Part shown: positions 2,379 through 50,576 of the stretch, one piece after another
Numbering within the stretch: the first letter of the stretch is position 1
How the letters are laid out: each line of letters begins with the position of its first letter
Assembly: GCA_964601935.1 (NCBI GenBank)
Contig: CAZROP010000001.1
Location: 185,867 to 249,866 of the forward strand
Length of the DNA: 64,000 nucleotides
DNA from: an uncultured Candidatus Saccharibacteria bacterium
Lineage (GTDB): Bacteria > Patescibacteriota > Minisyncoccia > Phycocordibacterales > UBA1006
Direction of reading: 5' to 3'
Notes under the pieces: generated by a model
What the model saw: only the letters and a program-made list of their open reading frames with translations
Databases searched by the model: none
What the model was told of the DNA's origin: nothing
Position numbers and translations under genes: made by a program

Positions 2379-2722
2379 GTAATTATGGTGATAAAACGAG
2401 TATATAATTCGACCTGTACCAAAGAATTACGAACTAGCCGAGAAGCTGTTCGAACAAGAATCTCGGAAGGTCTTGCGCCATGCCCACAAACGTGGAGATG
2501 ACCGCCCTCTGTCTCTGATTCTTTGAATACCCTGCAAATCTACCATTTTTTTAGAGAAAGACAAGGACTTTGTGATTTAACCAAAGATACGAAATGACAC
2601 CCTTCTGTCACCCTGAATTTATTTCAGGGTTCATAGAGATAGCTGTACAGATGCTGAAATAAATTTATCTTGCCCTGTAGGTACAGCATGACACATCAAA
2701 GTTTGTTTTTATATTTAAACTT
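2379..2722 (-). promoter_or_regulatory. long 5' leader of rplJ-rplL, candidate L10 autoregulatory leader; contains the palindromic repeat element
   Basis: ~340-nt ORF-free region upstream of rplJ with several stem-loops; the L10 leader is a well-known regulatory RNA in bacteria. Confidence 0.3.
2597..2700. repeat. two inverted copies of the CCCTGAAATAAATT...CAGGGTGACAGA palindromic repeat family (locus A)
   Basis: left copy tgtcaccctgaatttatttcaggg, right copy gctgaaataaatttatcttgccctgtaggtacagcatgacaca; related copies at 33757 and 40106. Confidence 0.55.
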
Positions 2723-2995
2723 TTAAAACAACTTCTTCCCGAACAGTGTTCCAATAGCATCCTCGAATGGTTTGTGCAGAGTATTATAAATAATGAGAGC
2801 CAAAACAACCAAAACGGTCAGGGGAAGGATCAGGACTAGGCGCGTTATATTGCTTTTCAGGTCGCCATTTTCCTTTATCCACTTTTCCCATATTGGATAC
2901 AAATAGGCCATAACCCACATTGCAGGCAATACAATAGGTCCTAGTATAATCAGTTTCGTATACTGTACCCATTTAGGAGACGTCGCGGCTGCCAT
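2723..2995 (-). CDS. small integral membrane protein, hypothetical
   Basis: 90 aa with two hydrophobic helices. Confidence 0.4.
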   Translation of the reverse strand: MAAATSPKWVQYTKLIILGPIVLPAMWVMAYLYPIWEKWIKENGDLKSNITRLVLILPLTVLVVLALIIYNTLHKPFEDAIGTLFGKKLF

Positions 2996-3015
2996 ATCGT
3001 ACTATACTACCAAAG

Positions 3016-3498
3016 TTATACGCAGTATCGCAAGTGATAAAGCGCAATGGCTCCTGCAACACTAACATTGAAAGACTCTTTTGTGCCCTGCTGCGGGATT
3101 TCGATAACTCCATGGGCACTCTGCAAGACCTGCGCTGACACTCCGTCAATTTCATTACCTACAACCAGTGCAATAAACTCACCCATCAATGAAGATTTAC
3201 GTACAGCAGGAAGATTGATTGAATCATCGCTCTGTTCGAGTGCATATACGGACATTCCCTTCTCCTGCAAACCTGATAATGCTGCTGATATGTCAGGGTA
3301 GTATCTCCAAGGTATGATATCTTCTGCCCCCAGAGAAACCTTTGCGAAATCTTGTCGTTTTCTGCCAAATCTATCTATCGGCGTCGGCGTAGTGCCTACT
3401 AAATATAATTCTGCTACACCCAAACATTCTGCCGTACGAAACAGTGACCCGGTATTATGCACACTGCGTATATTCTCCAGTACCAGTGTTATATTCAT
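3016..3498 (-). CDS. SpoU/TrmH-family RNA 2'-O-methyltransferase
   Basis: 160 aa; motifs NTGSLFRTAECLG, YLVG, and GNEIDGVS are typical of the SPOUT MTase class. Confidence 0.7.
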   Translation of the reverse strand: MNITLVLENIRSVHNTGSLFRTAECLGVAELYLVGTTPTPIDRFGRKRQDFAKVSLGAEDIIPWRYYPDISAALSGLQEKGMSVYALEQSDDSINLPAVRKSSLMGEFIALVVGNEIDGVSAQVLQSAHGVIEIPQQGTKESFNVSVAGAIALYHLRYCV

Positions 3499-24233: not shown

Positions 24234-24419
24234 AAGTACTATAAGGTGGAATTATACAATAACACCATCAGTATACACTGAACATAGATTATTGTATTGT
24301 GTATAACATTATAGTATTTATCGAAGAAACATTTGAAGATTGTGAATATAACTAAGTATAAAAGTATAAAAAACAAAACACCCTTACGGGTGTTTTGTTT
24401 TAGGTATTCTCAGAGAGAA

Positions 24420-24641
24420 TTACTGAGCAGGTACAACAACGTCTGTTGATACTTCAACAGGCTGTACTGCTGGCGCAGGCTGGATGTCTGTAACTGGTGC
24501 TCCCTCTACTGGAACTTCTTCTACAGCCTTGTTCTTCTTTCCGGTTACGATGATAATGATGATTATCACGATTACTGCAACAGCGATAAGGCTAGTTACG
24601 ATTGTATTTCCTTTGATCATAATAAATATAGATTCTTTCAA
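24420..24641 (-). CDS. small single-pass membrane protein
   Basis: 73 aa with one strongly hydrophobic helix (IAVAVIVIIIIIIVTG) followed by a Pro/Val-rich tail. Confidence 0.4.
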   Translation of the reverse strand: MKESIFIMIKGNTIVTSLIAVAVIVIIIIIIVTGKKNKAVEEVPVEGAPVTDIQPAPAVQPVEVSTDVVVPAQ

Positions 24642-24792
24642 ATGTTTTTAATAAAGTTGACATACCCTTTCCCCACAACAGAAGGGTGGATACGTATCTA
24701 TCGTATATCTTTACCCCAAAAATGCAACGGTCGTACGTGGAAAACAATAATTCCCGAGAAATGTCTACTTCGAGACCTCTGAAAATCCTTAT

Positions 24793-26427
24793 TTATACAT
24801 CGACCAACGGAGGTTTTGGACGGTACTGCAACGCATCCAGTATATGCCGGTCTTCAATAGTAGGAGACGATTCCATATCTGCAATCGTACGACCAATACG
24901 TATTACGCGATGATAGGCACGCGGTGACAAGTGCAGTTTTTCCGCGCTTTTCATCAATAACGTTCGTGCGCTATCTGACAAACCTACGGAATTCATATCA
25001 CGCGCCTGAATCAATGCATTAGGTGATCGTAATCCTGCAGACCCTGCACGTGTACTACCAAACGCACGTGCCTGTATGATATTTTGCCTGATCTGTGCAC
25101 TAGTTTCTCCTATAGAACTGTTATCATGCAAAGTTTCGTAGGAAATATGCTCTACCGGAACCCAGAGATCAATACGATCAACCAGAGGTCCTGATAGCTT
25201 TTTCCTATATTTTCGTATCTGAATTTCGCTACAGGTACAGCGTTTGACCCGTGACCCTGCAAATCCACATGGACAAGGATTCATAGCTGCAACTAATATA
25301 AAATTAGCAGGAAATTCTATTGTTCCTCGGGCACGCGATACAGTTACCACCTTATCCTCCAGCGGTTGCCGTAAACTTTCTAATACTTTTAGGTCAAATT
25401 CAGGGAATTCATCCAAAAACAACACACCGCGGTGCGCGAGACTCACTTCGCCAGGGCGTGGCACCGTGCCCCCACCTACTAATGCCACATAACTACTAGT
25501 ATGGTGCGGACTACGAAATGGCGGGTAATTAATAAATGACCCTTGTAGTGTTCCTGCGACTGAATGAATCCCTGTTACCTCTATGGCATCATCCAGTGAT
25601 AACTGAGGTAATAACCCAGTAAACGCACGGGCGAGCATGGTTTTGCCCGTTCCGGGCGGTCCGAACAAGGCAATACTATGGCCGCCTGCGGCGGCTATTT
25701 CTAACGCCCGTTTTGCCGATTCCTGACCTCGCACTGTCGATATGTCAGGATACTGTGGTGATTGTCGTAATAATGACTCGTCGAACTGGGCTATGGTAAT
25801 ATTCTGTACCTCTGTAGGTAGTTTTTGTTCCCGCATCATGCGTTCGAAACCATTCGTATCAATATGCGCTACAATATCCCGCAGATGATGTACGCCATAT
25901 ACGGTGATACCTTCCACTACCGATGCCTCATTGGCGTTTTCTTGCGGCACATATATGTCGGTATATCCCTGGTTCCGAGCCTCGATAGTCAACGGTAACA
26001 CCCCGCGTACTGACTGAATATCTCCATTCAGTGATAACTCACCTAAAAACAAGGACTTGTCACACTCACCCTGTATCGATCCGCTCGCTATCAAATACCC
26101 TATAGCTATTGCAATATCGTAATATGACCCTTCTTTGCGTAATTCTGCGGGCGATAACGATACAATTGTTTTTTGATTAGCATGTTTTGGCGACGGAAAA
26201 CCGCTATTATGCAACGCGGTGCCCACGCGCCCTCGAGATTCATCCACTGATTTATCAGGTACACCAATAATATCGAATTTATTAAGAGTATTATGAACAA
26301 TATCTACCTCGACCGTAACAACACTACCCGTAATACCTCGTGGCTGCGCCGAATGTACCCGTGCAAATGACGGCTTTTTCATAGATAGCCAGTACTGTAA
26401 CACAAATAATTGTAATATCAAAAACAC
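24793..26427 (-). CDS. comM: Mg-chelatase-like AAA+ ATPase YifB/ComM
   Basis: 544 aa; Lon-like N-terminal domain; Walker A FGPPGTGKTM; FLDEFPEF; C-terminal Zn motif VKRCTCS. Confidence 0.8.
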   Translation of the reverse strand: MFLILQLFVLQYWLSMKKPSFARVHSAQPRGITGSVVTVEVDIVHNTLNKFDIIGVPDKSVDESRGRVGTALHNSGFPSPKHANQKTIVSLSPAELRKEGSYYDIAIAIGYLIASGSIQGECDKSLFLGELSLNGDIQSVRGVLPLTIEARNQGYTDIYVPQENANEASVVEGITVYGVHHLRDIVAHIDTNGFERMMREQKLPTEVQNITIAQFDESLLRQSPQYPDISTVRGQESAKRALEIAAAGGHSIALFGPPGTGKTMLARAFTGLLPQLSLDDAIEVTGIHSVAGTLQGSFINYPPFRSPHHTSSYVALVGGGTVPRPGEVSLAHRGVLFLDEFPEFDLKVLESLRQPLEDKVVTVSRARGTIEFPANFILVAAMNPCPCGFAGSRVKRCTCSEIQIRKYRKKLSGPLVDRIDLWVPVEHISYETLHDNSSIGETSAQIRQNIIQARAFGSTRAGSAGLRSPNALIQARDMNSVGLSDSARTLLMKSAEKLHLSPRAYHRVIRIGRTIADMESSPTIEDRHILDALQYRPKPPLVDV

Positions 26428-33305: not shown

Positions 33306-33756
33306 AATAGTTATTGATAAAGATGGATTGTTAATAATAAAGTATCACATCGAGTGTAGAGAATTATGTCCTATACACTTCGATAGTACGAGTATACATG
33401 TCTATTACTAAGTAACGCAAAACAACTGTGTGGATAAAAGACATATTAATGTGGTAAAACAGGTGGATAGACTGAGTATAGTGTCTTTTATAATGTGCAG
33501 ATACTAGTGCACTAGTGTGGAGAGAGCTAATCCAAAGTTACTAGAAATATATTCAACTAATACTTTGTTGTCTTGGATGCTTTTTGGTTATGTCTTTTAA
33601 TATTCTGTCTTCACAGGTCCCGACCTGGGGTTATAAAAACAAGGAGTATAACGACTATGTTTTTCTATGCAAGGCCCAGGAATTAGAAAGATAGCAGGAC
33701 TTCGTAAGCGTATACCTCCCAGAATAAGCTTAAAGTGATAATATAGTCTCTATAGG

Positions 33757-33782
33757 CCCTCAAATAAATTCAGGGTGACAGA
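33757..33782. repeat. CCCTCAAATAAATTCAGGGTGACAGA repeat copy (locus B)
   Basis: 26/27 identical to the reverse complement of 2605..2629. Confidence 0.55.
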
Positions 33783-33827
33783 TCAAAGTGATTTTTCCTT
33801 AAAAATATGTATCCTGGGATGACAAAG

Positions 33828-33857
33828 TAAAACCCCTGCCGTATAGAGAGGGGTTTT
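33828..33857 (-). terminator. bidirectional terminator downstream of pnp
   Basis: hairpin aaaacccctgcc/ggggttttt flanked by A and T runs. Confidence 0.6.
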
Positions 33858-33887
33858 TAGATGAGAGCACGGTACGACAGAGGAACC

Positions 33888-36137
33888 TTAAGCTGTACCA
33901 GACAATCTCTTCATAGAAAGACCGATACGATCTCGTTCTTTGTCTACAGAAACAATGATTGCTTCTACGGATTGTCCTTGCGATAGCTTATCGCTTACAC
34001 GTGAAACGCGATCTTTGGATATTTCAGAGATATGAATCATACCTGAAGTATTCCCCCACTCTACAATGGCGCCTGTTTCGTCAATAATTTTAACTACCAC
34101 TGCTGTTACACGCTCACCTACAACCCATTCATGAGTCATGTCCTCTATAATTTTGCGTGCCGCAGAAGGTCCTGAAAAAGATTGGCTTGTTTCAGCTAGT
34201 CCTTTTTCTGGGTGACCAGTAATAAATATTCTTCCGTCGTCCTCAATGCTGATAGTGGTTTTTGTGTCCTTTTGAATCTTTTGGATAGTCTTACCTCCGC
34301 CACCTATAACCAAACCTATCTTTTCTGGATCAATTTGTAGTATTTCAATACGCGGTGCGTATGGTGATAATATAGGTCGAGGTACAGAAATAGCATCAGT
34401 AATCGTCTTTAAAAGCGTTTCATGTGCAACACGGGCCGCTCGAACTGCCTCGCGACACACAGAAACAGGGATACTCGCTAATTTTATATCCATCTGGATG
34501 GCAGTGATACCTGCACTTGTTCCTGCAACTTTGAAATCCATATCTCCATGATGATCCTCGGGGCCCTGAATATCGGTCAATAAAGCATATTTGCTAGTAA
34601 CTGCATCCATCATGAGTCCTATAGAAATTCCAACTACCGGTCGGGTAATAGGTACTCCAGCATCCATTAGAGCCAGAGTTGCAGCACAAACACTGGCCTG
34701 ACTGGTTGATCCGTTAGATGAAAGACATTCTGATACTACACGGATAGTATAGGGAAATAGGTCTACATTAGGGATAACTGGCTCGAGAGCCTTCTGAGCC
34801 AGAGCTCCATGGCCCAATTCGCGTCTGCCAGTTGATCCTATACGACCAGTTTCTCCTGTGCTGTAGGGAGGAAAGTTGTAGTGATGCCAAAATCGCTCCT
34901 CTCCGGCACTATCCATAGATTCATGCATCAAATTACTATCGGGTCCAGCCAGTGTTGCAACTGACAGTACATGTGTTTCACCGCGGTAGAATATGCCACT
35001 ACCATGTAATCTGTCGGATATACCTCCTGCCTGGGCATATAATGGACGTACTTCATCCATTTTTCGACCATCAGCACGTTTTTTGTCTTGTAGTGCTGCA
35101 GTGTGGAGGACTTCATCAATCTTGTGATCCAAAAAGTCACTAGAATTGTGAAAGGGATCAGATTCTTTTTCTATTTGTGGGTTTTCTTCAGTAACTTTTT
35201 TATATTCTTTTCGTTCTTCCTCGATTATCTCCTTCCAGGTAGTGAATATCTGTCCTATACGAGATTTACTGTCAGTACCAAACAGATCGCGTTCTATAAT
35301 CAGTCGCATACGTGTCTCGTATATGTCTGATAATTTTTGAGAAAATACCGGGAATTCGATTACTTTTTTTGTTTTTCCTACTGTAGTACGTAATTCAGTT
35401 ATCCAGGATGTCCATTGTGCTGTAATAGACACAGTCGTGTCTAATAATTGATCAAATAGCTCAGGAGATACCTCAGCAGAGCCCATTTCTATCATGTTTA
35501 CTGCTGTACCATTGCCACATACCAGTAGATCTGCAGATAGAAAAGGCGTAATCGACATATTAGGTTGATAGGGGTTAATAGATATTTCTTGAGAATTTGA
35601 ATTCAATAATACACCACTACGAGCACAGCCAATAGGTCCATTCCACGGAATGTCTGATATGTGTAACGCCATAGATGCTGCGTTTGTAGCCAAGACAACA
35701 GGATCGTAATCTCCAACAGAAAGTACGGTTACGATGATTTGTACGGAGTTTTTGATACGGCTATCGAATAAAGGACGTAATGTTCTGTCTATAATACGTG
35801 ATGCTAACGTTGCATTCAGGCTGGGACGTCCCTCGCGACGCTGGTAAGGACCGCCAGCTATTTTGCCAGATGCATAGAATCGCTCGGTATATTCGACAGT
35901 CAAATTGAAATATCCAGGATTCTTGTGTGTATCATCACCCATAGTGATCGCAGCCAGCACTACTGTTCCGTTTGCTGATAGCATTATTGACCCGTTTGCC
36001 TGTCCTGCTAAATCGGTGAGGTGCGCCGTAACTGTGGTTCCTGATATGTCCTTTATATAGGTTGTGTGTTTCATAGATGGTTCTGTTATGTCGAGTAATA
36101 AAGTATTGATTAGATTAATCAATAGATCTGTAACCAA
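33888..36137 (-). CDS. pnp: polyribonucleotide nucleotidyltransferase (PNPase)
   Basis: 749 aa; two RNase PH domains (RREGRPS...RPLF), a KH domain (KIGLVIGGGGKTIQKI), and a C-terminal S1 domain. Confidence 0.88.
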   Translation of the reverse strand: MVTDLLINLINTLLLDITEPSMKHTTYIKDISGTTVTAHLTDLAGQANGSIMLSANGTVVLAAITMGDDTHKNPGYFNLTVEYTERFYASGKIAGGPYQRREGRPSLNATLASRIIDRTLRPLFDSRIKNSVQIIVTVLSVGDYDPVVLATNAASMALHISDIPWNGPIGCARSGVLLNSNSQEISINPYQPNMSITPFLSADLLVCGNGTAVNMIEMGSAEVSPELFDQLLDTTVSITAQWTSWITELRTTVGKTKKVIEFPVFSQKLSDIYETRMRLIIERDLFGTDSKSRIGQIFTTWKEIIEEERKEYKKVTEENPQIEKESDPFHNSSDFLDHKIDEVLHTAALQDKKRADGRKMDEVRPLYAQAGGISDRLHGSGIFYRGETHVLSVATLAGPDSNLMHESMDSAGEERFWHHYNFPPYSTGETGRIGSTGRRELGHGALAQKALEPVIPNVDLFPYTIRVVSECLSSNGSTSQASVCAATLALMDAGVPITRPVVGISIGLMMDAVTSKYALLTDIQGPEDHHGDMDFKVAGTSAGITAIQMDIKLASIPVSVCREAVRAARVAHETLLKTITDAISVPRPILSPYAPRIEILQIDPEKIGLVIGGGGKTIQKIQKDTKTTISIEDDGRIFITGHPEKGLAETSQSFSGPSAARKIIEDMTHEWVVGERVTAVVVKIIDETGAIVEWGNTSGMIHISEISKDRVSRVSDKLSQGQSVEAIIVSVDKERDRIGLSMKRLSGTA

Positions 36138-36359: not shown

Positions 36360-36403
36360 CAAAAACATCTCGTTTCCATAATGGAAACGAGATGTTTTTG
36401 TTA
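36360..36403 (-). terminator. intrinsic terminator (15-bp perfect stem) between pilin array and pnp
   Basis: aaacatctcgtttcc-ataat-ggaaacgagatgttt followed by a T-run on the minus strand. Confidence 0.65.
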
Positions 36404-36454
36404 TTAGATAAAGTATACGCATACTTTTCACTCCTGCGAGTAGTTTCTCCACAA

Positions 36455-36490
36455 ACAAAAAACCACTGTCATGACGCAGTGGTTTTTGTA
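36455..36490 (-). terminator. intrinsic terminator immediately after pilin gene 1
   Basis: aaccactg-tcatgacg-cagtggtt followed by a T-run. Confidence 0.6.
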
Positions 36491-38431: not shown

Positions 38432-38470
38432 ACGTTTCTAATATTACCATTGTTAAGTTTATAAAATCTG

Positions 38471-38497
38471 ATAGAGAATTTACGTATTATTCTCTAT
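38471..38497. promoter_or_regulatory. inverted repeat ATAGAGAAT-N9-ATTCTCTAT upstream of pilin copy 3
   Basis: third exact copy of the palindrome. Confidence 0.5.
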
Positions 38498-38639
38498 ATA
38501 TCTATGGTATCAGAATAATTCTGTGAAAGGCTGGATAGTATCTGTTAATTGTGGAGAATGTGAAATCTAGTTGTGAGTAGATTTATTGATACCTTACAAG
38601 AATTAATCTATTTTAGATTCTTGATTTGCTGATTAACTA

Positions 38640-38676
38640 TAACAAACCCCTGAACAGTTGTTCAGGGGTTTGTTTG
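38640..38676 (-). terminator. intrinsic terminator after rpsO
   Basis: aaacccctgaac-agtt-gttcaggggttt. Confidence 0.6.
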
Positions 38677-38688
38677 GAAGAGGTAGTA

Positions 38689-38973
38689 CTATTTTCGCAG
38701 TTCCAGTTTTTCGATCAGAGCAGTGTAGGCTGCGACATCATGCTTTTTTATGTAGTTTAGCATACGGCGGCGAGTTGAAACGAGTTTCACTAATCCCATT
38801 CTACTCGACAGATCTTTCTTGTGGATCTTGAGGTGCTCGGTGAGCTCCTTTATGCGAGCAGTCAGGAGAGCAACCTGTACGGGAGCAGATCCTGTATCGT
38901 TCGTCGATTTCTGATGAGGCTTGATAATTCTGGTTTTTGTTTTTGAAGTCATCATAGATGGTTCGCGAGACAA
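38689..38973 (-). CDS. rpsO: 30S ribosomal protein S15
   Basis: 94 aa with S15 signatures [27 protein letters not shown] and TRRRMLNYI. Confidence 0.85.
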
Positions 38974-39011
38974 CTAGTTGTGTAACCGATTGTTCGTATT
39001 AGTTTGTAACA

Positions 39012-41812: not shown

Positions 41813-42742
41813 ATGGCTATCATGCTATACTGCATCCATATGAAATTTGTATCATGGAATGTGAACGGTCTGCGTGCCGTGACGAAAAAAGGATTCTTCC
41901 CCACCTACGTCGCGAGTGGAGAATATGATGTGATATTTCTAATGGAGACAAAATCAGAAATCGGTCAGCTATCTGATGAGGTAATATCGATTTCGGGATA
42001 CTCGTTCATGTTGCAGCCGAGTACCTACAAAAAAGGATACGCAGGTGTCGGCATGTATGTCCGCGATGGATTGTCGGCTGTGATCGAGACCGGATTTTCT
42101 CATGACTGTGCATTGCATGACGAGGAGCGCATTATGACTGTATCACTCGTACATCCTATTCACGGACGGATTGCGATCACAGGAGCATACTTCCCGAACG
42201 GTGCGCGCGGCAGTGTAAAGAGGGGTGGAGATGTAGAGACTAATAATCGAGTTTCTGATGAGTCAAACCCCCTCCCGACCTCCCCCTTTTCTAGTGGGAG
42301 GAGCTTGAAAACAGCTGCAGACTTCGGATCGAACCTGGAATACAAGCTGGCATTTTTTACCGAGTTTCAGAATCACATGGAGCACCTGGAGAAATCCCAT
42401 GATCATGTACTAGTTTGTGGTGACATCAATATTGCACACCACCCTATTGATCTGGCACGACCCGAGTCGAACAAAAATTCTGTAGGATTCTTGCCGGTCG
42501 AGCGTGCGCGACTAGATGCATGGCATAGCGATGGGTGGAGAGATATATGGCGAGAACTGCATAGCGATGAAGTGGTATACAGTTGGTGGGATGTTATCAG
42601 TGGTGCGCGTGCACGCAATGTTGGATGGCGTATTGATGCATGGTGGATGCGGCAGTCATCACTACCGATCATCGACGAGATCAGATACGATACAGAACAA
42701 ATGGGTTCGGATCATTGTCCTGTGGTGGTAATTCTGAAATAA
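41813..42742 (+). CDS. xth: exodeoxyribonuclease III / AP endonuclease (EEP fold)
   Basis: 309 aa; N-terminus WNVNGLRA, then CGDINIAHHPIDL, WWD, and C-terminal SDHCPVVV; contains a ~55-aa insertion. Confidence 0.8.
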   Translation: MAIMLYCIHMKFVSWNVNGLRAVTKKGFFPTYVASGEYDVIFLMETKSEIGQLSDEVISISGYSFMLQPSTYKKGYAGVGMYVRDGLSAVIETGFSHDCALHDEERIMTVSLVHPIHGRIAITGAYFPNGARGSVKRGGDVETNNRVSDESNPLPTSPFSSGRSLKTAADFGSNLEYKLAFFTEFQNHMEHLEKSHDHVLVCGDINIAHHPIDLARPESNKNSVGFLPVERARLDAWHSDGWRDIWRELHSDEVVYSWWDVISGARARNVGWRIDAWWMRQSSLPIIDEIRYDTEQMGSDHCPVVVILK

Positions 42743-42761
42743 CGGAGATTCATTTCAGCAG

Positions 42762-42806
42762 AAAAACCACCCGCACTGCGTAGCAATGCGGGTGGTTTTG
42801 TTTTAG
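42762..42806 (+). terminator. intrinsic terminator after xth
   Basis: aaaaccacccgcactgcg-tagcaa-tgcgggtggtttt followed by a T-run. Confidence 0.6.
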
Positions 42807-42901
42807 CCATTAAAGTCTTCATTATCTAACCCAAAATGAAATCCGCCAGCATCAGAATGATGTGGCGGATCCGAACGGACTAGTATGAAAAAAATCTTTC
42901 G

Positions 42902-43118
42902 TTAGTTCGATTCCGGAAGATCTGGAATCTTTTTGTTTTTGAAGCCATCAATCTTTTCTAGGGAATCTTGTCTCTGATCCAGCTCTTTTTGGTGAAGAGC
43001 TTTTTCGATGGCGTTCTTCTCCTCCGTTGTCTTTTTGATCTGCTGGTCATAATAAGGGTCGCAGCTTCCGAGGACTAAGATACAAACTGCCAGAAATACA
43101 ACAGTAGTAAGTTACTTC
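42902..43118 (-). pseudogene. small lipoprotein gene with in-frame TAA at codon 3 (MK*LTTVVFLAVCILVLGSC...)
   Basis: translation by hand: ATG AAG TAA, then 70 sense codons giving a lipobox signal (LVLGSC) and a charged mature peptide; no alternative ATG is present. Confidence 0.4.
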
Positions 43119-43286
43119 ATGATGTTTATGTTTTGTATTAAACTAGCATTCATCTGAGTATTTGTCAAATACTATAGTTGCTGTATATGTTCGTGGGTCC
43201 TAGGGTCTATCACAAGAAAAAATCCGTGAACAGTCAAATTGACTGTTCACGGACTTTCAAGGATTTACTGTATCAGGCTTGCTTAA

Positions 43287-44021
43287 TCAGAAAGGATACT
43301 CTTGCAAGAGGCTATCCGGGTTACTCACTAATAAGGCCGTTTGCTCTGCCGACAACTGTGTCAGAGTATACCAGGCTACTTTTTCCTGCCAGGTGCTTCC
43401 TTTCGCCTTATCCTGTATTGCAAACTTTATGCGGTAGTAGTTATCGGCTTCTGGTTGTGTGTCCGAGTCGCCGAGTGCTGCAATCAGAAATTCATCAAGA
43501 GTAGAAAAATATTCCATGCTTTGAGTTGATATAACCCAGGTGAAAGATTCACATGGGTTTTTTGTCAACCCATTGAGTGGTGTAAAGTGCGGCATATAGA
43601 GCGCCTCTTCACTGGTCTGTAATAAGTACCAGGTGTTGTAGTATAAGTAATTCTCGAAAGAATCCACGTACACCCTACCTGTTAATGCGATTTCTGTAAA
43701 AGGTACTTCAGGTGTTTCAACATCGTTCCAGTCCTTAACATATAACGGTGTCGTTGGTGTACCTATATACACGGGTACATTACTGTATCGTACATAGTAT
43801 ACCGCCCCTGTATCTTCTATCGTTGTATTCAGCGAGTCTCGTAATGAGAGCGCAACGCTATCCATCATTTCTGCAAAGCCTTTGACTGTTGATGATTGAT
43901 ATTGATAGTCGGTGGGTTTTGCGATACTTCCTAATCCAAGAAAGATGAAAAATAGAAGTAAACAAATACCCGAGAACTGTACAAACCCGGATGGGTCTGC
44001 GATGTTAAAGAGCTTACTCAT
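43287..44021 (-). CDS. hypothetical membrane-anchored protein
   Basis: 244 aa with an N-terminal TM (GICLLLFFIFLGLGSI). Confidence 0.45.
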   Translation of the reverse strand: MSKLFNIADPSGFVQFSGICLLLFFIFLGLGSIAKPTDYQYQSSTVKGFAEMMDSVALSLRDSLNTTIEDTGAVYYVRYSNVPVYIGTPTTPLYVKDWNDVETPEVPFTEIALTGRVYVDSFENYLYYNTWYLLQTSEEALYMPHFTPLNGLTKNPCESFTWVISTQSMEYFSTLDEFLIAALGDSDTQPEADNYYRIKFAIQDKAKGSTWQEKVAWYTLTQLSAEQTALLVSNPDSLLQEYPF

Positions 44022-46047: not shown

Positions 46048-46443
46048 TTAGTAACCACCACCGAATCCACCACTGTTCTGGTCGTTACCATAGTCACGGC
46101 GAGGAGCACGCTGGCCACCACCGAATCCACCACGGTCACCTCCACCAAAGCCTCCTGAACGTCCACCTCCACCGTTAAAATCACGGCGCTGTGGGCGATC
46201 GGTCATAGGACGAGCCTCGTTGACCATAATATTGCGTCCCATGAATTCTGTATTATTCAAGGCAGCTATTGCAGCGTTTGCTTCTGCATCAGGCATTTCC
46301 ACGAATGCGATACCGCGTGAACGGGTTGGATTATCGCGCTCCATGATGATGGTTGCTGTTTCTACAGTACCGAATGCGCTGAATAATTCGCGAAGATCTT
46401 CTTCACGAGACTGCCAAGAAAGGTTGCCTACGTATATTTTCAT
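46048..46443 (-). CDS. RRM-type RNA-binding protein with Gly-rich C-terminal tail
   Basis: RNP-2 KIYVGNLS, RNP-1 RGIAFVEM, then a GGGGRSGGFGGG tail. Confidence 0.85.
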   Translation of the reverse strand: MKIYVGNLSWQSREEDLRELFSAFGTVETATIIMERDNPTRSRGIAFVEMPDAEANAAIAALNNTEFMGRNIMVNEARPMTDRPQRRDFNGGGGRSGGFGGGDRGGFGGGQRAPRRDYGNDQNSGGFGGGY

Positions 46444-49064
46444 AGAAAATGAGGGAAATTAGGTTATATAGTTCAGAGAGCTATAGTTCCTAGATTCCAA
46501 GGGTTGTACTGACTGTTTCATGCGAAACGAGTCGATTTGTTTTTATAATCGACATGTTGTCTCGCGTTACTTGTTACCTGTCTCTTTACCCAGTACTGAC
46601 GTCATGACTCGCCTGTACCAATAAACTCACATTCTCAAAAACCAGCCAGAGATACTATGTCGCGCATAGTGTATCATGCGTGGGGTGTAAAAGCAAAGTT
46701 ATTGACCTTTTTTCTTCCGTCTTCCCAGGCGTAGCGATAGCGGAGATCTGGGATACAGGATTAGAAAAACTCACTGGAGTGTTGTAAGTATGCTGAATCC
46801 TGGATCCCGGGTTGACTATTCATATAGTCGGACCTTGTCCTTCCTTATGAATATGTCCCCCGGGAAGACAGGAAGATTTACGCAAAGCCTTGCGCATTCG
46901 TATAATATGGGTTATTGTGAATTAAATTTCATTAAAATCCACACGGTTATGAGAAAGTTATACATTTTTTTCTGTACCAAATTTGTTAGTTTGACTACGT
47001 GGGCGATGTGCTGGCATTATATTTATTCAGGAGCTGCCCTTCCTGTGAAGAAGGTGGTCAAGACACACTCCTATCACAAAAGGTTAAAGCGTTGGTGGCA
47101 TTGTCGAAAGCTACGATTGCGTATTTGGGTCGACAAAGTGATCTGGGGTAAGGAAGAGGAGATTATACTTGGTGCCGACAGTTCGGTACATCAGGTGCGT
47201 CCTCCAGATGGTTATACTCAAATAAATAAGGATAATTTCCCCCGCCCCGCATTACCTGATTGAAGGACGCTAGTGTTAGAACTAAAAGACCTGATTTTAC
47301 CGAACATATCGATATATTCGATTGTTGCAGTAAGATCAGGTTTTTCTTTTGTTGGATATAAAAATACCCGATAATCTTTATGATTACGGGTGGTTTTATG
47401 ACTAAAGCTAGTTTCTAAAAAAGTGCAGGGTCTTTCCTGGAGGTATGAGGAGAGGACCAGGAGACCCTGCGCGAGTATAGCTTGTTATTCAGTAGTGTAC
47501 TCCGTATAGATAATTATGCAAGGGAGTATTAAAAAACTGCTATGTCCTTTCAGATCAGATATAGCAGTAGTTGGTCCAGAGGGTCCTCCCCGAATTCCCC
47601 TAATCTGTAACTTGTGAGGGAGGCCCTTGTTCCCTCTGGATTTTTTTTGAAAAGTCGGCACCCAGCGCCACAGCGACCCCTGTACCACGTTGTTGTTCTG
47701 GGTCAGGGCACTAGGTGCTCAACTTTTCTATTTGTTCATAGTGTTGAGCCCTACACTACTAGTATTTATTGCAAAGTCAACAGTAACCAGTCATCCTGAT
47801 CATTTTGGAATAATAAAAAACTGCTGTCATCTCGGAGAGAAACAGCAGCTTGTTGCGGCGATCATTCATCATGACCCCCTAATATAACCCCAAAAAACCA
47901 AATGAAAACTTCTTTCGGTGCTGTAACTAAACGCTACGGCACTGAAAGAATGATTTTCTATAAAAAATATGCTCTCTGGAATTTACACCTAGTATATACC
48001 CTCTTGATTCATTGTCAAGAACGCCTGTTCATATTCAGGGTATCTTTGTAAGTATTGTCAAAATAAAAAGTCCCAGAATGGTTACAACGGGCGCTGTGTC
48101 ATCCTCTCTCACGGAGATACAAAAAACCGCTCGCAGATTTTGTACCGAAGGAAAACTGTCCTAGGGGCTAAAAATGGAGCGGCTTCACATGAAACAAATT
48201 TACGTCTTGAGGGTTTCGGTATTAAAGAGAGGTCGACCACTGCTGCCAGTATCGACCTCCCGAAAAACACCTAAAACCCTATTTTTTTCTGTATCATTCG
48301 GTTCGAACGGATTAGCATAATTATATGCTTATAATCCTACATCGTCAATATAATTCAAATAAAAAGGCTGACTCGAAAACATAAAAAGAATTCGGGTCAG
48401 ACTGTGTATGAGAGGATAATCAACGAATGAAATAATAAAAAATCCCCCTTTTGCTGGCCCACTCTACACCCGATTGCGGATTTGTCCAATAGGTATTAAA
48501 AAACGGGAGCCACTGGTGATCTTTGTGGCCCCGTTCAGGGTTGTTGCGCCTCTGGTAGAGTCCGCAACGGGTATATGTGGAGTGAGCTCGTTTTCTTTGA
48601 ATTAGGTCGGGACCTGAATACTGTCCCGACCAGTATATTCAAAAAACAGCAGGTATAGGGTCAATTGAGTAATAGTATAGAGACATGTTCCGGTTTGTCA
48701 ACCCTAGACGGTAATAAAAACCCCTGCAAGGTCACCCATGGGGTAACTACTGCAAGGATCGAGGTTTCGCCTTCTGAAGCTATAAAAGTGTAGTCAGATT
48801 TCCAGTATACTGAAAATATAATGCGTGACTATTGTGGTGGGGTTATAAAAAACCGCTTCATCGGGAGTCTCGGTCGCTAAAACGAGTGATGAAGCGGAGT
48901 AATATCTGGGCGCATGGCATTAGGTGGGGCGCCCAGAACAAAAAACGTATGACGATCTAATAGTGAGGCGTAGCCTACAGGAATTATCGGGCATTGTCAA
49001 GAATTGCAGATGTTAATCGGGTACACATTGTCCTATAACGTCGTATTGTCAAACACCGTGTCTC
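46444..49064. other. ~2.6-kb ORF-poor, stem-loop-dense region (candidate cluster of ncRNAs or a large structured RNA)
   Basis: no ORF over 160 aa; the only ORF (46790..47263) has an implausible W/C/H-rich composition; many perfect 7-11-bp hairpins; + strand terminators at ~47288-47350, 47366-47397, and 47577-47649; minus-strand terminators at ~47815-47850 and 48845-48897. Confidence 0.5.
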
Positions 49065-50576
49065 TTAGGAGACACGGTGTTTTTGTCGTAACAGGGCTAT
49101 TTCTTCTGCCTCGCGAATTTCGCGCTCTCGTTTCCCTGCTTCACCGAGGTTTTTCAGTTCGCTGTCGGATAGATTTTGTAGTTCCGTCACACGTGTACCC
49201 AGATATTCACGTGTATTACGAGTATCGTCATCCAAGACCTCTTCTAGGAGCGTGTTCAGTATCCATCCCAGACGTGGCCCTGGGTTCACATGAAACTCGT
49301 TCATCAGATCGTTGCCGTTCAGCGCCAGCATGGTGACCGACAGTGGACTGCGCAGTGCCTCCTCTATCATTGCCTCATATTTACGTAGTCGATAGGGTTC
49401 TGCGTCCTTTTTGCCCATTCCTATGCGATCGCTGCGCCGTACACGCATGAGATCCCATATCAAATCCTCACCTACGTTGACTATCATACGGCGTACGGCA
49501 GATAGTGTGATAGTTTCTGTATCCGAAAAGAACATATGATATCGGACAAGCTTCTCTACTTTGTCCGATAGATCTCGAGGATATTTCATGCGCTCCATTA
49601 TTTTGCGTACCATTTTGGCGCCAATAACCTCGTGTCCATAAAATGTCCATATTCCAGCCTGTTCATCGCGTCTACGGCTGCGTGGTTTTCCTATATCGTG
49701 GAATAGCGCAGCCAGGCACACGTGCAGCGGCCATTCCTGCCATACCGCATTCTGACAGGCATTCAAATTATGAGTAAATACATCATAGATATGGCTTCGG
49801 GATTGCTCGCAACCATGGCCTTCTAGCAATTCAGGGAGAATAATGGCGAGCAATCCAGTTTCATGTGCAACCTCTATCCCCTTTTTGGGCTCCGCAGACA
49901 TAACCATTTTGGTGAATTCATCACGAATACGTTCTATAGAGACGGTCTTTGTTTCGTCCATGAGTTGTTTCATAGCGTATGCGGTCTCTGGTTCAATGGT
50001 AAATCCGAGCTGGGCTGAAAATCGTATCGCTCGCATAATTCGTAATGGGTCTTCTGAAAAACGCTCAAACGGACTGCCTATGGTGCGAATAGTCTTGGAT
50101 AATATGTCAGAAACTCCGCCTGTATTGTCGTGTAACAGATGTTTCACTGTGTCATACACTAATGCATTCATCGTAAAGTCTCGCCGAGAGAGATCATCCA
50201 TCAGATTGGTACTAAAAGACACATTATCAGGATGACGTTTATCGCTATACTCTGACTCTGTCCTGTATGGAGTTGCATGAATTTCGCGTAGTCCGGACGA
50301 CTGTTCGTTATCAGGGAATATAAAAGACACAGTACCAAAGGGGTTTTCGTATACGACACGAATACTAGAAGATTCTGCTACAGCTATCATCTGATCGGGT
50401 GTGGCAGAGGTGGTGATATCCCAGTCGTGAGGATCACGATTCATCAGCAGGTCGCGCACGCAGCCACCAACGAGAAATGCCTCGTGTCCATTAGATTGTA
50501 GTAATTCTATAACACGTGCTGGTTCTGTAGGGATATCGAATTGAATTGCAACCGAATTGGTATCAGGAGTAGTCAT
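49065..50576 (-). CDS. cca: CCA-adding tRNA nucleotidyltransferase with HD domain
   Basis: 503 aa; Pol-beta NTase head GGCVRDLLM...DWD; HD motif LFHDIGKP. Confidence 0.8.
   Translation of the reverse strand: MTTPDTNSVAIQFDIPTEPARVIELLQSNGHEAFLVGGCVRDLLMNRDPHDWDITTSATPDQMIAVAESSSIRVVYENPFGTVSFIFPDNEQSSGLREIHATPYRTESEYSDKRHPDNVSFSTNLMDDLSRRDFTMNALVYDTVKHLLHDNTGGVSDILSKTIRTIGSPFERFSEDPLRIMRAIRFSAQLGFTIEPETAYAMKQLMDETKTVSIERIRDEFTKMVMSAEPKKGIEVAHETGLLAIILPELLEGHGCEQSRSHIYDVFTHNLNACQNAVWQEWPLHVCLAALFHDIGKPRSRRRDEQAGIWTFYGHEVIGAKMVRKIMERMKYPRDLSDKVEKLVRYHMFFSDTETITLSAVRRMIVNVGEDLIWDLMRVRRSDRIGMGKKDAEPYRLRKYEAMIEEALRSPLSVTMLALNGNDLMNEFHVNPGPRLGWILNTLLEEVLDDDTRNTREYLGTRVTELQNLSDSELKNLGEAGKREREIREAEEIALLRQKHRVS

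What the first reader, a model, noticed from the sequence alone, without database searches (positions are those of the whole stretch)
46444..49064. 2.6-kb ORF-poor island densely packed with stem-loops and inward-facing terminators: candidate large structured RNA or ncRNA cluster
In an otherwise tightly packed genome this region has no credible ORF; the single ORF, 46790..47263, is W/C/H-rich and overlaps a long-range helix (ttcttccgtcttccc at ~46713 pairing with gggaagacaggaaga at ~46865). It contains at least 12 perfect 7-11-bp GC-rich hairpins. Several are preceded by A-runs, so they read as hairpin plus U-tract terminators on the minus strand (47815-47850, 48845-48897), while others are canonical + strand terminators (47288-47350, 47577-47649 with an 8-T tract). 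This suggests convergent transcription of non-coding RNAs. Size and structure density resemble large ncRNA classes such as ROOL, GOLLD, or OLE, but no identity can be asserted.
Basis: seen in the sequence. Interest (0 to 1): 0.7.

Follow-up and report, generated by a model that had tools for sequence, protein, structure and literature searches.

The report
Small-RNA gene cluster with a borrowed RNA
The gene-free island in this tiny-genome (CPR) bacterium looks like a row of separately transcribed small RNA genes beside an RNA-binding-protein gene, not one big RNA, and one of them carries a 24-base core identical to a small RNA found in many copies in an unrelated group (Saprospirales) and their viruses.

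Summary
The ORF-poor island is real. It is the longest ORF-free stretch in the window, and its only sizeable ORF has no homolog among 1.84 billion proteins. It is not a ROOL/GOLLD/OLE-type large RNA: Rfam finds nothing, and the region is cut up by internal promoters and terminators. On the minus strand (the strand of both flanking genes, CCA-adding enzyme and an RRM-1 RNA-binding protein) there are 11 hairpin+U-run terminators, against 0.76±0.92 in shuffles. Three of the window's six best sigma-70 promoter matches are also there. Together they delimit about 10 structured units of 60-220 nt.

The proximal ~250 nt is the conserved 5' leader of the RRM gene.

Unit U7 (47812-47984, minus strand) contains GUUUUCAUUUGGUUUUUUGGGGUU. 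The same 24-mer sits at the syntenic site in two related CPR genomes. It also occurs in at least 119 Saprospiraceae/Lewinellaceae/Chitinophagales genomes, there behind Bacteroidota-type promoters and in several copies per genome, and in 38 viral contigs. This family is not in Rfam. Its architecture resembles the RbpB-bound FopS sRNAs of Bacteroides.

Transcription and function remain untested.

The parts
46444..46690 (-). Promoter region and long (~220 nt) 5' leader of the RRM-1 RNA-binding-protein gene (46048-46443, minus strand). It has conserved blocks UCUCUGGCURGUUUUUG and CAAGUAACGCGAGACA...AUGUCGAUUA.
   Evidence: Aligned with the region upstream of the RRM gene in L012, L013 and L011. 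The -10-like box TACACT (46673-46668) lines up with TACAAT and TAGACT in the relatives (read from alignment A1). Long regulatory 5' UTRs are reported for Bacteroides rbp genes (PMC13370968).
46712..46878 (-). Its core is AACCCGGGAUCCAGGAUU (minus-strand reading). Function unknown and strand not settled.
   Evidence: Fold z = -8.3 (minus) and -5.2 (plus). Related copies are at L012 855-975 and L011 19775-19925, with a partial copy at L011 ~5505. The consensus fold is -16.0 kcal/mol in minus orientation against -10.3 in plus, with 3-5 compensatory pairs among only 3 sequences. There is a single copy in the window and none in viral contigs.
46949..47263 (+). Orphan ORF of 104 aa as called by gene finders (157 aa if started at 46790). 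Probably not a conserved gene. It is followed by the bidirectional hairpin.
   Evidence: It matches only itself in 1.84e9 representative proteins. No family hit. A sigma-70-like site, TTTACG-18-TATAAT, lies at 46877-46906.
47280..47358 (.). U11: long imperfect hairpin (arms 47285-47312 / 47318-47345) with a T-rich run after it on the + strand (TTTTTCTTTT) and only a weak one on the - strand (TCTTTTAG). It could terminate on either strand.
   Evidence: I1. One search gives -21.5 kcal/mol on the plus strand. One search gives z = -6.9 (minus) and -7.6 (plus).
47359..47415 (-). U10: short hairpin plus U-run (T-run 47364-47360).
   Evidence: z = -3.7.
47416..47500 (-). U9: GC-rich hairpin (47425-47470) with a CU-rich loop, plus a U-run (47422-47417).
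   Evidence: -25.0 kcal/mol; z = -4.5; perfect 9-bp stem.
47530..47746 (-). U8: unit of about 215 nt with a weak promoter (TTGACT 47780-47775, 16 nt, TAGTGT 47758-47753) and a terminator (T-run 47536-47531). Its internal hairpin 47578-47640 reads as a plus-strand terminator with a T8 run.
   Evidence: Sequence read. (z = -5.9 minus, -4.1 plus). (plus-strand terminator 47616-47636).
47812..47984 (-). U7: sRNA gene. Promoter TTGACA-16-TATACT at 48018-47991. A 5' hairpin, then the invariant core GUUUUCAUUUGGUUUUUUGGGGUU(A) at 47909-47886(5), a small hairpin, and the terminator 47852-47821 with U-run 47820-47815.
   Evidence: Promoter 11/12. Fold -62.9 kcal/mol, z = -7.7. Core identical in L011 7788-7811 and L012 1-25. 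A model built only from Saprospirales copies hits 47874-47915 with 41 bits, E 1.4e-11. At least 119 Saprospirales loci and 38 viral contigs carry the core.
48064..48313 (-). U5 (+U6): promoter TTGACG-17-TATAAT at 48348-48320, a structured RNA of about 190 nt, terminator with U-run 48126-48121, then a second hairpin plus U-run (48069-48065).
   Evidence: 11/12; z = -5.2 minus, -2.8 plus.
48358..48454 (-). U4: weak promoter TGGACA-16-TAGAGT at 48488-48461, a unit of about 95 nt, terminator with U-run 48365-48361.
   Evidence: 9/12; z = -2.4.
48497..48667 (-). U3: promoter TTGACA-16-TATACT at 48701-48674, a unit of about 170 nt with three hairpins, terminator with U-run 48503-48498.
   Evidence: 11/12; z = -5.4 minus, -2.7 plus.
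48715..48797 (-). U2: promoter TAGTCA-16-TATACT at 48831-48804, a unit of about 80 nt, terminator with U-run 48720-48716.
   Evidence: 9/12; -21.7 kcal/mol; z = -2.9 minus, -1.0 plus.
48846..48965 (-). U1: promoter TTGACA (49000-48995), 17 nt, TAGGCT (48977-48972). A single-stranded U-rich 5' part, hairpin 48937-48905, terminator 48897-48853 with U-run 48852-48847.
   Evidence: Sequence read. Searches (-17.5 kcal/mol; z = -4.1).
49051..49082 (.). Perfect 14-bp palindromic hairpin across the stop codon of the CCA-adding-enzyme gene (49065-50576, minus strand). It marks the upstream boundary of the island.
   Evidence: I9; -18.8 kcal/mol; PolyA_pol + HD domains.

Best explanation
The island is a composite non-coding region in a Patescibacteria (CPR, Paceibacteria-like) genome. 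Reading the minus strand downstream from the CCA-adding-enzyme gene, it holds:
1. A head-to-tail array of about 10 small, independently terminated transcription units (U1-U11, 60-220 nt). At least five have sigma-70-type promoters. None has a credible ORF.
2. An orphan plus-strand ORF.
3. A conserved ~170-nt structured element.
4. The long 5' leader of the adjacent RRM-1 RNA-binding-protein gene.

Inference: the units are small regulatory RNAs expressed by the CPR cell.

Shown: U7 is homologous to a previously uncatalogued sRNA family. The family is defined by a 24-nt invariant G/U-rich core followed by an intrinsic terminator. It is present in several copies per genome in Saprospirales (Bacteroidota) and is carried by their phages.

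Inference: the CPR lineage obtained the core+terminator module by horizontal transfer and placed it behind a consensus sigma-70 promoter.

Most likely mode of action, by analogy with the RbpB-bound FopS sRNAs of Bacteroides and not tested here: the single-stranded core either pairs with A-rich translation-initiation regions (its complement reads ...AAAAAACCAAAUGAAAAC and contains an AUG), or serves as a binding platform for the glycine-rich RRM protein encoded next door, or does both.
For: HOST AND SETTING.
- Homologs of the CCA-adding enzyme carry only Patescibacteria names where a name is given.
- The flanking genes are a PolyA_pol/HD enzyme and an RRM_1 protein.
- More distant relatives (L005, L006, L007) lack the island and the RRM block altogether. 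Closer relatives (L011, L012) carry promoter/terminator units upstream of the RRM gene.

ARRAY.
- 11 minus-strand terminator-like sites against 0.76 in shuffles.
- Three of the six sigma-70 matches of at least 11/12 in the window lie here on the minus strand. The same consensus sits just upstream of the CCA gene.
- Every unit folds better than its shuffles (z from -2.4 to -8.1). For most multi-hairpin units (U2, U3, U5, U7, U8) the minus strand folds better than the plus strand.
- No ORF appears under any genetic code tried.

U7.
- The 24/25-mer is identical in three CPR genomes, each 1.2-2.2 kb upstream of the RRM gene, while the flanking sequence differs.
- The L011 copy has a perfect 12/12 promoter.
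- All 119 hits in the genome collection are Saprospiraceae, Lewinellaceae or Chitinophagales, including cultured isolates.
- In those genomes Bacteroidota promoters (TAnnTTTG) lie 5-150 nt upstream, a hairpin with U-run follows, and there are several copies per genome.
- 38 viral contigs carry the core, and terminase, major head protein or head maturation protease genes lie near it in three of the five checked.
- A model built from Saprospirales copies alone finds one hit each in the window, L011 and L012, and none in L005, L006 or L010.
- The terminators of L011 and L012 resemble one Saprospirales subtype (37/48 and 35/48 matches, against medians of 27 and 19.5).

ANALOGY.
- FopS sRNAs are 14 copies of 65-70 nt, with a 5' single-stranded seed and a terminator. 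They are bound by the RRM-1 protein RbpB and repress susC translation-initiation regions (PMC11697453).
Against: - There is no transcript evidence of any kind. Promoters and terminators are consensus matches only.
- Apart from U7, the RRM leader and the 46712-46878 element, nothing in the island is conserved in the only two informative relatives. The other units could therefore be non-functional.
- Several units (U6, U9, U10, U11) have a terminator but no convincing promoter. They may be tandem terminators or parts of longer transcripts.
- In the predicted primary transcripts of the window and L011 the core is mostly base-paired (unpaired probability 0.18 and 0.35, against 0.80 if the RNA starts at the core). 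A free seed would therefore need processing or unfolding.
- No target was found. The best duplex in the window is within chance. Translation-initiation regions near the Saprospirales copies pair no better with the core than with shuffled cores.
- No RRM gene lies within 8 kb of the Saprospirales or phage copies.
Confidence: 0.65

Rival explanations
1. The island is one large structured non-coding RNA (ROOL, GOLLD, OLE or HEARO-like, or a new class) spanning most of the 2.6 kb.
For: High hairpin density and strongly negative fold z-scores throughout. A long-range helix at 46712/46878.
Against: No Rfam match at gathering score, and only noise at E<=10. About 11 internal hairpin+U-run terminators and three near-consensus promoters on the same strand. 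No sequence conservation across the region in relatives that share the flanking genes. The long-range helix encloses only 167 nt.
Confidence: 0.03
2. The island is the debris of a recombination or insertion hot spot. It holds leftover promoters, terminators and gene fragments from mobile elements, and only the RRM leader (and perhaps U7) is functional.
For: The CCA-to-RRM interval is variable. It is absent in L005, L006 and L007. In L011 it is a 9-kb stretch with GIY-YIG genes, a MazE/PIN pair and small hypothetical genes. Most units have no homolog elsewhere. One metagenome assembly breaks inside the island.
Against: Decay should not produce a one-stranded array of strong terminators alternating with 11/12 promoter matches. 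It should not leave the stronger folding on one strand (minus) for U2, U3, U5, U7 and U8. No pseudogene-like ORF remnants or protein-family traces were found. In a streamlined CPR genome, 2 kb of junk would be unusual.
Confidence: 0.2
3. The region encodes small or unusual proteins: the 104/157-aa plus-strand ORF, the 49-aa ORF at 47902-48051, or micro-ORFs in each unit.
For: Gene callers predicted the 104-aa and 49-aa ORFs. The 104-aa ORF has a sigma-70-like site upstream and a terminator downstream.
Against: The ORF has no homolog in 1.84e9 proteins. The 49-aa ORF starts at the ATG on the complement of the invariant U7 core. The equivalent ORFs in other copies, translated by hand from the flanks printed, run only about 6-15 codons and are not conserved beyond 'MKT'. 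Minus-strand ORFs run through terminators. Alternative codes do not help.
Confidence: 0.07
4. The 24-nt core acts at the DNA level (an attachment site, operator or similar) shared by mobile elements, rather than as an RNA.
For: It occurs in phages, sometimes 1-10 nt after a tRNA or tRNA-like gene, a classic integration landmark. It sits in a variable region of the CPR genomes.
Against: It always has the same orientation relative to an upstream promoter of the host's own type (sigma-70 in CPR, TAnnTTTG in Bacteroidota) and a downstream hairpin+U-run whose stem covaries. No integrase or repeat pair flanks it in the window. In Saprospirales it lies in many unrelated chromosomal contexts.
Confidence: 0.05

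Closest known systems
FopS / GibS sRNA family of Bacteroides thetaiotaomicron (ligands of the RRM-1 protein RbpB; PMC11697453)
   Same: A Bacteroidota sRNA family present in several copies per genome. Short RNAs built from a conserved single-stranded stretch followed directly by a Rho-independent terminator. Transcribed from canonical Bacteroidota promoters. The conserved stretch is complementary to start-codon regions. In the CPR genomes the family member lies next to an RRM-1 gene.
   Different: No sequence similarity. The FopS 5' region, read from the published northern probe, is GUAUUAGAUUUAAGGUUAACAAA, against GUUUUCAUUUGGUUUUUUGGGGUU here. No Rfam family, so none for FopS, matched the copies; whether this Rfam release holds a FopS model was not checked. 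The taxon differs (Saprospirales, their phages and CPR). Many copies, including the CPR ones, carry a 30-100-nt 5' extension. Protein binding and targets are untested.
Tandem or clustered sRNA genes in other bacteria (recalled examples: Listeria LhrC1-5, Pseudomonas PrrF1/F2, Vibrio Qrr)
   Same: Several short, separately promoted and terminated non-coding units lie head to tail in one intergenic region.
   Different: Those clusters are paralogs that share a seed. The units here share no detectable sequence with one another.
sRNAs derived from tRNA 3' trailers (recalled example: E. coli 3'ETS-leuZ) and phage-borne regulatory RNAs
   Same: In eight viral contigs the core lies downstream of a tRNA or tRNA-like gene, and in five of them only 1-10 nt after it. 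tRNA 3' processing there would release an RNA that begins at or close to the core.
   Different: This applies to phage copies only. The window copy has its own promoter and a 5' hairpin. Processing is inferred, not shown.
Large bacterial ncRNAs ROOL, GOLLD, OLE, HEARO
   Same: A kilobase-scale ORF-free stretch with dense secondary structure.
   Different: No model match. The region is interrupted by terminators and promoters. It is not conserved as a unit.
Long regulatory 5' UTRs of bacterial cold-shock and RRM-1 genes (cspA; Bacteroides rbpA/B/C, PMC13370968)
   Same: The 46444-46690 segment is a conserved leader of more than 200 nt in front of a small glycine-rich RRM protein gene.
   Different: No sequence relation was tested. 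Regulation is unproven here.

Membership tests
ROOL / GOLLD / OLE / HEARO and all other Rfam 15 families | Match to the family covariance model at its gathering score | tested here: not met
   cmscan of the whole window returns only 5 tRNAs, all outside the island. At E<=10 within 46300-49200 there are only sub-threshold chance matches.
ROOL / GOLLD / OLE / HEARO-type large ncRNA | One continuous transcript, conserved as a unit across relatives | tested here: not met
   11 internal minus-strand terminators and internal consensus promoters. Only three short blocks are shared with syntenic relatives. Transcript continuity itself cannot be tested here.
Saprospirales 24-nt-core sRNA family (unnamed, defined here) | Invariant core GUUUUCAUUUGGUUUUUUGGGGUU | tested here: met
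   Exact match at 47909-47886 on the minus strand. A model built from 100 Saprospirales copies scores 41 bits, E 1.4e-11.
Saprospirales 24-nt-core sRNA family (unnamed, defined here) | Intrinsic terminator (GC hairpin plus U-run) directly 3' of the core | tested here: inconclusive
   L011 and L012 have it 3-8 nt after the core, with similarity to one Saprospirales subtype. In the window the terminator (47852-47815) lies about 33 nt downstream, after an extra small hairpin.
Saprospirales 24-nt-core sRNA family (unnamed, defined here) | Own promoter upstream and no coding potential | tested here: met
   TTGACA-16-TATACT (11/12) at 48018-47991, and 12/12 in L011. This is the sigma-70 type, not the TAnnTTTG type seen in Saprospirales. 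The opposite-strand ORFs starting in the core are not conserved (read).
Saprospirales 24-nt-core sRNA family (unnamed, defined here) | Several copies per genome | tested here: not met
   One copy in the 64-kb window and one each in L011 and L012. The rest of the genome was not available.
FopS / GibS (Bacteroides) | R1/R1' seed sequence at the 5' end | tested here: not met
   The FopS 5' sequence deduced from probe AWO-590 is unrelated to the core.
FopS / GibS (Bacteroides) | Binding by an RRM-1 protein (RbpB) and repression of susC-type translation-initiation regions | not testable with these tools
   Only adjacency to an RRM-1 gene in three CPR genomes is known. No target was found.
Intrinsic (Rho-independent) terminators | GC-rich hairpin followed at once by a run of at least 5 U | tested here: met
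   11 minus-strand sites with hairpin dG <= -10 kcal/mol. Termination itself was not tested.

The most novel reading that the evidence does not exclude
This uncultured CPR lineage lives on or with Saprospirales hosts. It strongly expresses a copy of the host's own regulatory sRNA, present in several copies per host genome, as the host's phages also do. The copy would either be delivered into the host to reprogram it (an inter-bacterial RNA effector) or would soak up a shared RRM-type RNA-binding protein. The remaining units of the island could be further effector or mimic RNAs whose counterparts I could not search for. On this reading the shared sRNA core would also be the first sequence-based pointer to the host of this CPR lineage.
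Probability: 0.1. Interest if true: 0.95.

Novelty: new variant of a known kind. Interest (0 to 1): 0.72.

Why it matters
- Small-RNA regulation in CPR/Patescibacteria is essentially uncharted. In my searches of the held paper library I found no description of an sRNA gene cluster in a CPR genome and no occurrence of the core sequence. A 2-kb block of candidate sRNA genes beside an RRM-type RNA-binding-protein gene gives a concrete, testable entry point.
- The U7 result defines an sRNA family that is not in Rfam and is present in at least 119 Saprospirales genomes and 38 viral contigs.
- The same family's 24-nt core, and in two of the three CPR genomes its terminator too, sits in CPR genomes behind a promoter of a different type. 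That is a clear case of cross-phylum sRNA transfer.
- It may indicate who the CPR organism associates with.
- It suggests that parasites (phages and possibly epibionts) copy host regulatory RNAs.

Tried and rejected
- Rfam at permissive thresholds on the island, on 15 related loci and on a Saprospirales copy: nothing.
- Two metagenome scans with degenerate patterns from the RRM leader, to find more CPR relatives: zero hits, and both scans are now spent.
The spread of the core in Patescibacteria, and any counterparts of the other units, could therefore not be checked.
- k-mer comparison of the island, L011 and L012 against all Saprospirales and viral loci: only the U7 core is shared.
- Viral scans with single-stranded segments of U1 and U5 and with the 46796 motif. 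U1 gave 4 hits in unrelated hairpin contexts, judged to be chance. The others gave none.
- Target hunting led nowhere. No near-complementary sites exist in the Saprospirales loci fetched by then. The best duplex in the window, at ~33640 on the minus strand (-26.7 kcal/mol), rests on a 10-11-nt match that is expected by chance. Translation-initiation regions of 653 genes near the Saprospirales copies pair no better than with shuffled cores. The top hits have unrelated or no Pfam families.
- RRM genes are not linked to the family in Saprospirales or phages.
- No universal neighbouring gene exists.
- Cultured-phage and plasmid collections hold no copy.
- The literature holds no occurrence of the core sequence and no established Patescibacteria-Saprospiraceae association.
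- RNAalifold on the mixed 100-sequence alignment gave no consensus pairs because the variable hairpins were misaligned, so model R1 is sequence-only. A single-subtype alignment recovers the terminator stem.
- Other CPR RRM loci (L171-L174) have gaps of only 200-270 nt upstream, so the island is specific to this lineage.
Full report
SETTING

The island lies between two minus-strand genes. One is a CCA-adding/poly(A)-polymerase-type enzyme with an HD domain (49065-50576). The other is a 131-aa RRM_1 protein with a glycine-rich tail (46048-46443). Homologs of the enzyme that carry a name are all Patescibacteria: Pacebacteria, Nomurabacteria, Campbellbacteria, Minisyncoccia. The window is therefore from a CPR bacterium.

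The same sequence was assembled independently from two sequencing runs (L001-L004, 100% identical). In relatives whose enzyme is about 60% identical, the enzyme gene is followed directly by the Exo_endo_phos, integrase and S15 genes (L005-L007). The island, the RRM gene and four hypothetical genes are thus a lineage-specific insertion.

Two closer relatives keep the RRM gene at this place. In L011 (a 423-kb contig), 9 kb of variable DNA with GIY-YIG genes, a MazE/PIN pair and small ORFs lies between the enzyme and RRM genes. L012 is a short contig.

CHECKING THE OBSERVATION

- ORF-poor: the island is the longest ORF-free stretch in the window (1713 nt, against at most 592 nt elsewhere). Reassigning any stop codon does not create a gene.
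- The 157-aa ORF is an orphan. In a search of 1.84 billion representative proteins it found only its own 104-aa gene call, and it has no family hit.
- Rfam finds nothing in the island at curated thresholds and only noise at E<=10.
- The count of 'perfect' hairpins is 7 rather than 12 under strict criteria.
- The terminators are overwhelmingly on one strand, not convergent. There are 11 minus-strand sites, against 0.76 +/- 0.92 in dinucleotide shuffles, and 2 plus-strand sites by the same scan (3 with the long 47578-47640 hairpin that the scan missed).

ANATOMY

Read on the minus strand, the region from 49000 to 47280 is a series of units. Each is a TTGACA-type promoter, then 60-220 nt of highly structured RNA, then a hairpin with a U-run.

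- Three promoters match the sigma-70 consensus at 11 of 12 positions (48701, 48348, 48018). Only six such sites exist in the 64 kb (binomial P 1.3e-3 for three of six falling in the island). Another of the six sits 23 nt upstream of the enzyme gene's start codon, so the consensus is used at a real gene start in this organism.
- All units fold better than their shuffles (z from -2.4 to -8.1).
- U2, U3, U5, U7 and U8 fold clearly better on the minus strand. That is expected if G-U pairs contribute.
- No unit has a plausible minus-strand ORF.
- The units share no sequence with each other beyond terminator tails.

Closer to the RRM gene there are three further features:
- A bidirectional hairpin (47285-47345).
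- The orphan plus-strand ORF.
Copies of this element occur in L012 and twice in L011. A few compensatory changes support a consensus helix, which is more stable in the minus orientation.

The final ~250 nt (46444-46690) align with the region upstream of the RRM gene in L011, L012 and L013. I read this as the gene's promoter and long 5' leader. Leaders of 122-155 nt with feedback regulation are reported for Bacteroides RRM-1 genes (PMC13370968).

THE UNEXPECTED PART: UNIT U7

A blastn and k-mer comparison with the relatives showed one perfectly conserved block inside the array. It is GTTTTCATTTGGTTTTTTGGGGTT(A) at 47909-47885 on the minus strand, identical in L011 and L012. Coding DNA of the same genomes is only about 70-80% identical.

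In all three genomes it lies 1.2-2.2 kb upstream of the RRM gene. In the window and in L011 it sits between a non-homologous 5' hairpin and a terminator; L012's contig begins at the core, so only its terminator is seen. The two hairpins are different sequences that both end in the conserved AAGA(A/U)U just before the core. L011 has a perfect TTGACA-16-TATAAT promoter.

Every one is in Saprospiraceae, Lewinellaceae or other Chitinophagales (Bacteroidota). They include the isolates Flavilitoribacter nigricans, Lewinella sp., Neolewinella aquimaris and N. litorea.

In those genomes:
- The core is followed within a few bases by a GC hairpin and U-run. The base of the hairpin is conserved within subtypes and its upper stem varies freely.
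- The core is preceded, 5 to about 150 nt upstream, by the Bacteroidota -7 promoter motif TAnnTTTG in 38 of 118 copies by exact match.
- Several genomes hold two to four loci, or tandem copies.
- Neighbouring genes differ between subclades.
- No Rfam family matches.

A scan of viral contigs found 38 more copies. Of five viral contigs checked, three carry phage hallmark genes next to the RNA: a terminase in L163 and L158, a major head protein in L163 and a head maturation protease in L144. In eight viral contigs the core lies downstream of a tRNA or tRNA-like gene, and in five of them the gap is only 1-10 nt. tRNA 3' processing there would release an RNA that starts at or close to the core. In others a Bacteroidota promoter abuts the core.

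A sequence model built only from 100 Saprospirales copies finds exactly one hit each in the window (41 bits, E 1.4e-11), L011 (50 bits, including the terminator) and L012 (37 bits). It finds none in the more distant CPR loci. The terminators of L011 and L012 resemble one Saprospirales subtype well above the family median. Homology therefore extends over the whole ~70-nt module.

Chimeric assembly cannot explain this. Both flanks are syntenic CPR genes in three species, and the window sequence was assembled independently from two sequencing runs.

INTERPRETATION

Shown:
- U7 is a member of a widespread and so far uncatalogued sRNA family of Saprospirales and their phages.
- The CPR copies carry sigma-70-type promoters instead of Bacteroidota ones.

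Inferred:
- The module entered this CPR lineage by horizontal transfer, most simply once, before the three genomes diverged.
- It is kept by selection, and it is expressed by the CPR cell.

The family's design is a conserved single-stranded stretch followed by a terminator, present in several copies per genome and driven by a housekeeping promoter. This is the design of the FopS sRNAs of Bacteroides thetaiotaomicron. Those are bound in their 5' part by the RRM-1 protein RbpB and block translation of susC-type mRNAs (PMC11697453). The sequences are unrelated, so this is analogy, not membership.

Two non-exclusive mechanisms follow:
- Antisense pairing to A-rich start regions. The complement of the core is AACCCCAAAAAACCAAAUGAAAAC.
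- Binding of the neighbouring glycine-rich RRM protein.

For the second there is a weak hint. The most conserved block of the RRM leader (GGCURGUUUUUGNGG) resembles the core's UGGUUUUUUGGGG. This is a lead only.

I could not find a target. In the predicted full-length CPR transcripts the core is largely paired with the RNA's own 5' end. Processing or protein-assisted opening would be needed to free it.

The other units have good promoter, terminator and folding signals but no comparative support. I rate the 'array of expressed sRNAs' reading at about two in three. The main rival is debris from a recombination hot spot.

NOVELTY

sRNA clusters and phage-borne sRNAs are known kinds. Three things are new here:
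- An sRNA gene island beside an RRM gene in a CPR genome.
- The definition of the Saprospirales/phage family.
- The sharing of that family across phyla, with a swap of promoter type.

The boldest reading still allowed is that the CPR organism, like the phages, copies a host regulatory RNA in order to act on a Saprospirales host. It has no direct support. The library searches I ran turned up no report of such an association. I give it about 10%.

Noticed in passing
window 46712-46878; L012 855-975; L011 19775-19925 and ~5505: A conserved, strongly folding (~170 nt, z = -8.3) multi-helix element with the invariant core AATCCTGGATCCCGGGTT. In L011 one copy lies directly upstream of a NYN-domain (RNase-like) gene on the same strand. 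In the window it lies upstream of the RRM leader. In L012 its orientation relative to the RRM gene is reversed. There is no Rfam match.
   Followed up: partly
window 46630-46650 versus 47886-47900 (minus strand): The most conserved block of the RRM gene leader (UCUCUGGCURGUUUUUGNGNAU) resembles the 3' half of the U7 core (UGGUUUUUUGGGGUU). GGT(5-6)G occurs 5 times on the minus strand of the window, and 3 of these are in the island. This may be a shared protein-binding motif, but the numbers are small.
   Followed up: partly
L144 1764-1865; L145 2250-2348; L150, L167, L170: In these viral contigs the 24-nt core starts 1-10 nt after the 3' end of a tRNA or tRNA-like gene. This suggests the core RNA is released as a tRNA 3' trailer.
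   Followed up: partly
L151, L156, L157, L158 (viral contigs, GC 38-41%): Here the hairpin after the core is not followed by a U-run. It is followed by TTACCCAAAACCAAAG, which is complementary to the core, so the core would be locked into a long stem. This variant has a different architecture.
   Followed up: no
L049 (upstream of the two tandem copies at 3252-3496); L060 (minus strand, ~1.4 kb from the end of the reverse-complemented locus): Degenerate sister copies that keep AGATTGTTTTCATT but diverge in the rest of the core (for example GTTTTCATTAGTTACACAACC...). The family seems to diversify its conserved stretch within a genome.
   Followed up: no
L011 8560-8640 and 8950-9045: Two copies of a long palindromic element (GTAGCTAGGACCGTCCTACCTA...TAGGTAGGACGGTCCTAGCTAC) in the variable region upstream of the RRM gene. 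It looks like a miniature mobile element.
   Followed up: no
window 2427-3018, 24252-24795, 33345-33890, 38438-39002, 42740-43289: Five other ORF-free stretches of about 550 nt. Terminator-like sites on both strands cluster at 42766-43380 and 36365-36483. They could hold further small RNAs or long leaders.
   Followed up: no
window ~47042-47070 (L002 / L004 ends): The assembly from run SRR13208889 breaks inside the island. Its two contigs overlap by about 29 nt, whereas run SRR13208906 assembles straight through. Strain variation or a repeat at this point is possible.
   Followed up: no
L011 1-1075: The CCA-adding-enzyme gene of this relative is called as two ORFs (331+ aa and 174 aa). It may be a frameshift, a pseudogene or an assembly error.
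   Followed up: no
L008/L009 (contig ends 18 nt after the enzyme gene); L010 2262-2285: Contigs of the closest relatives of the enzyme gene (80% and 74% identical) end right after the gene. L010 ends in a TTGCTTG-type short tandem repeat. The downstream region may be hard to assemble in these relatives too.
   Followed up: no
window 47902-48051 (+): A 49-aa ORF predicted by gene callers starts at the ATG that lies on the complement of the invariant U7 core and runs through the U7 hairpin and promoter. It is almost certainly a false gene call.
   Followed up: yes
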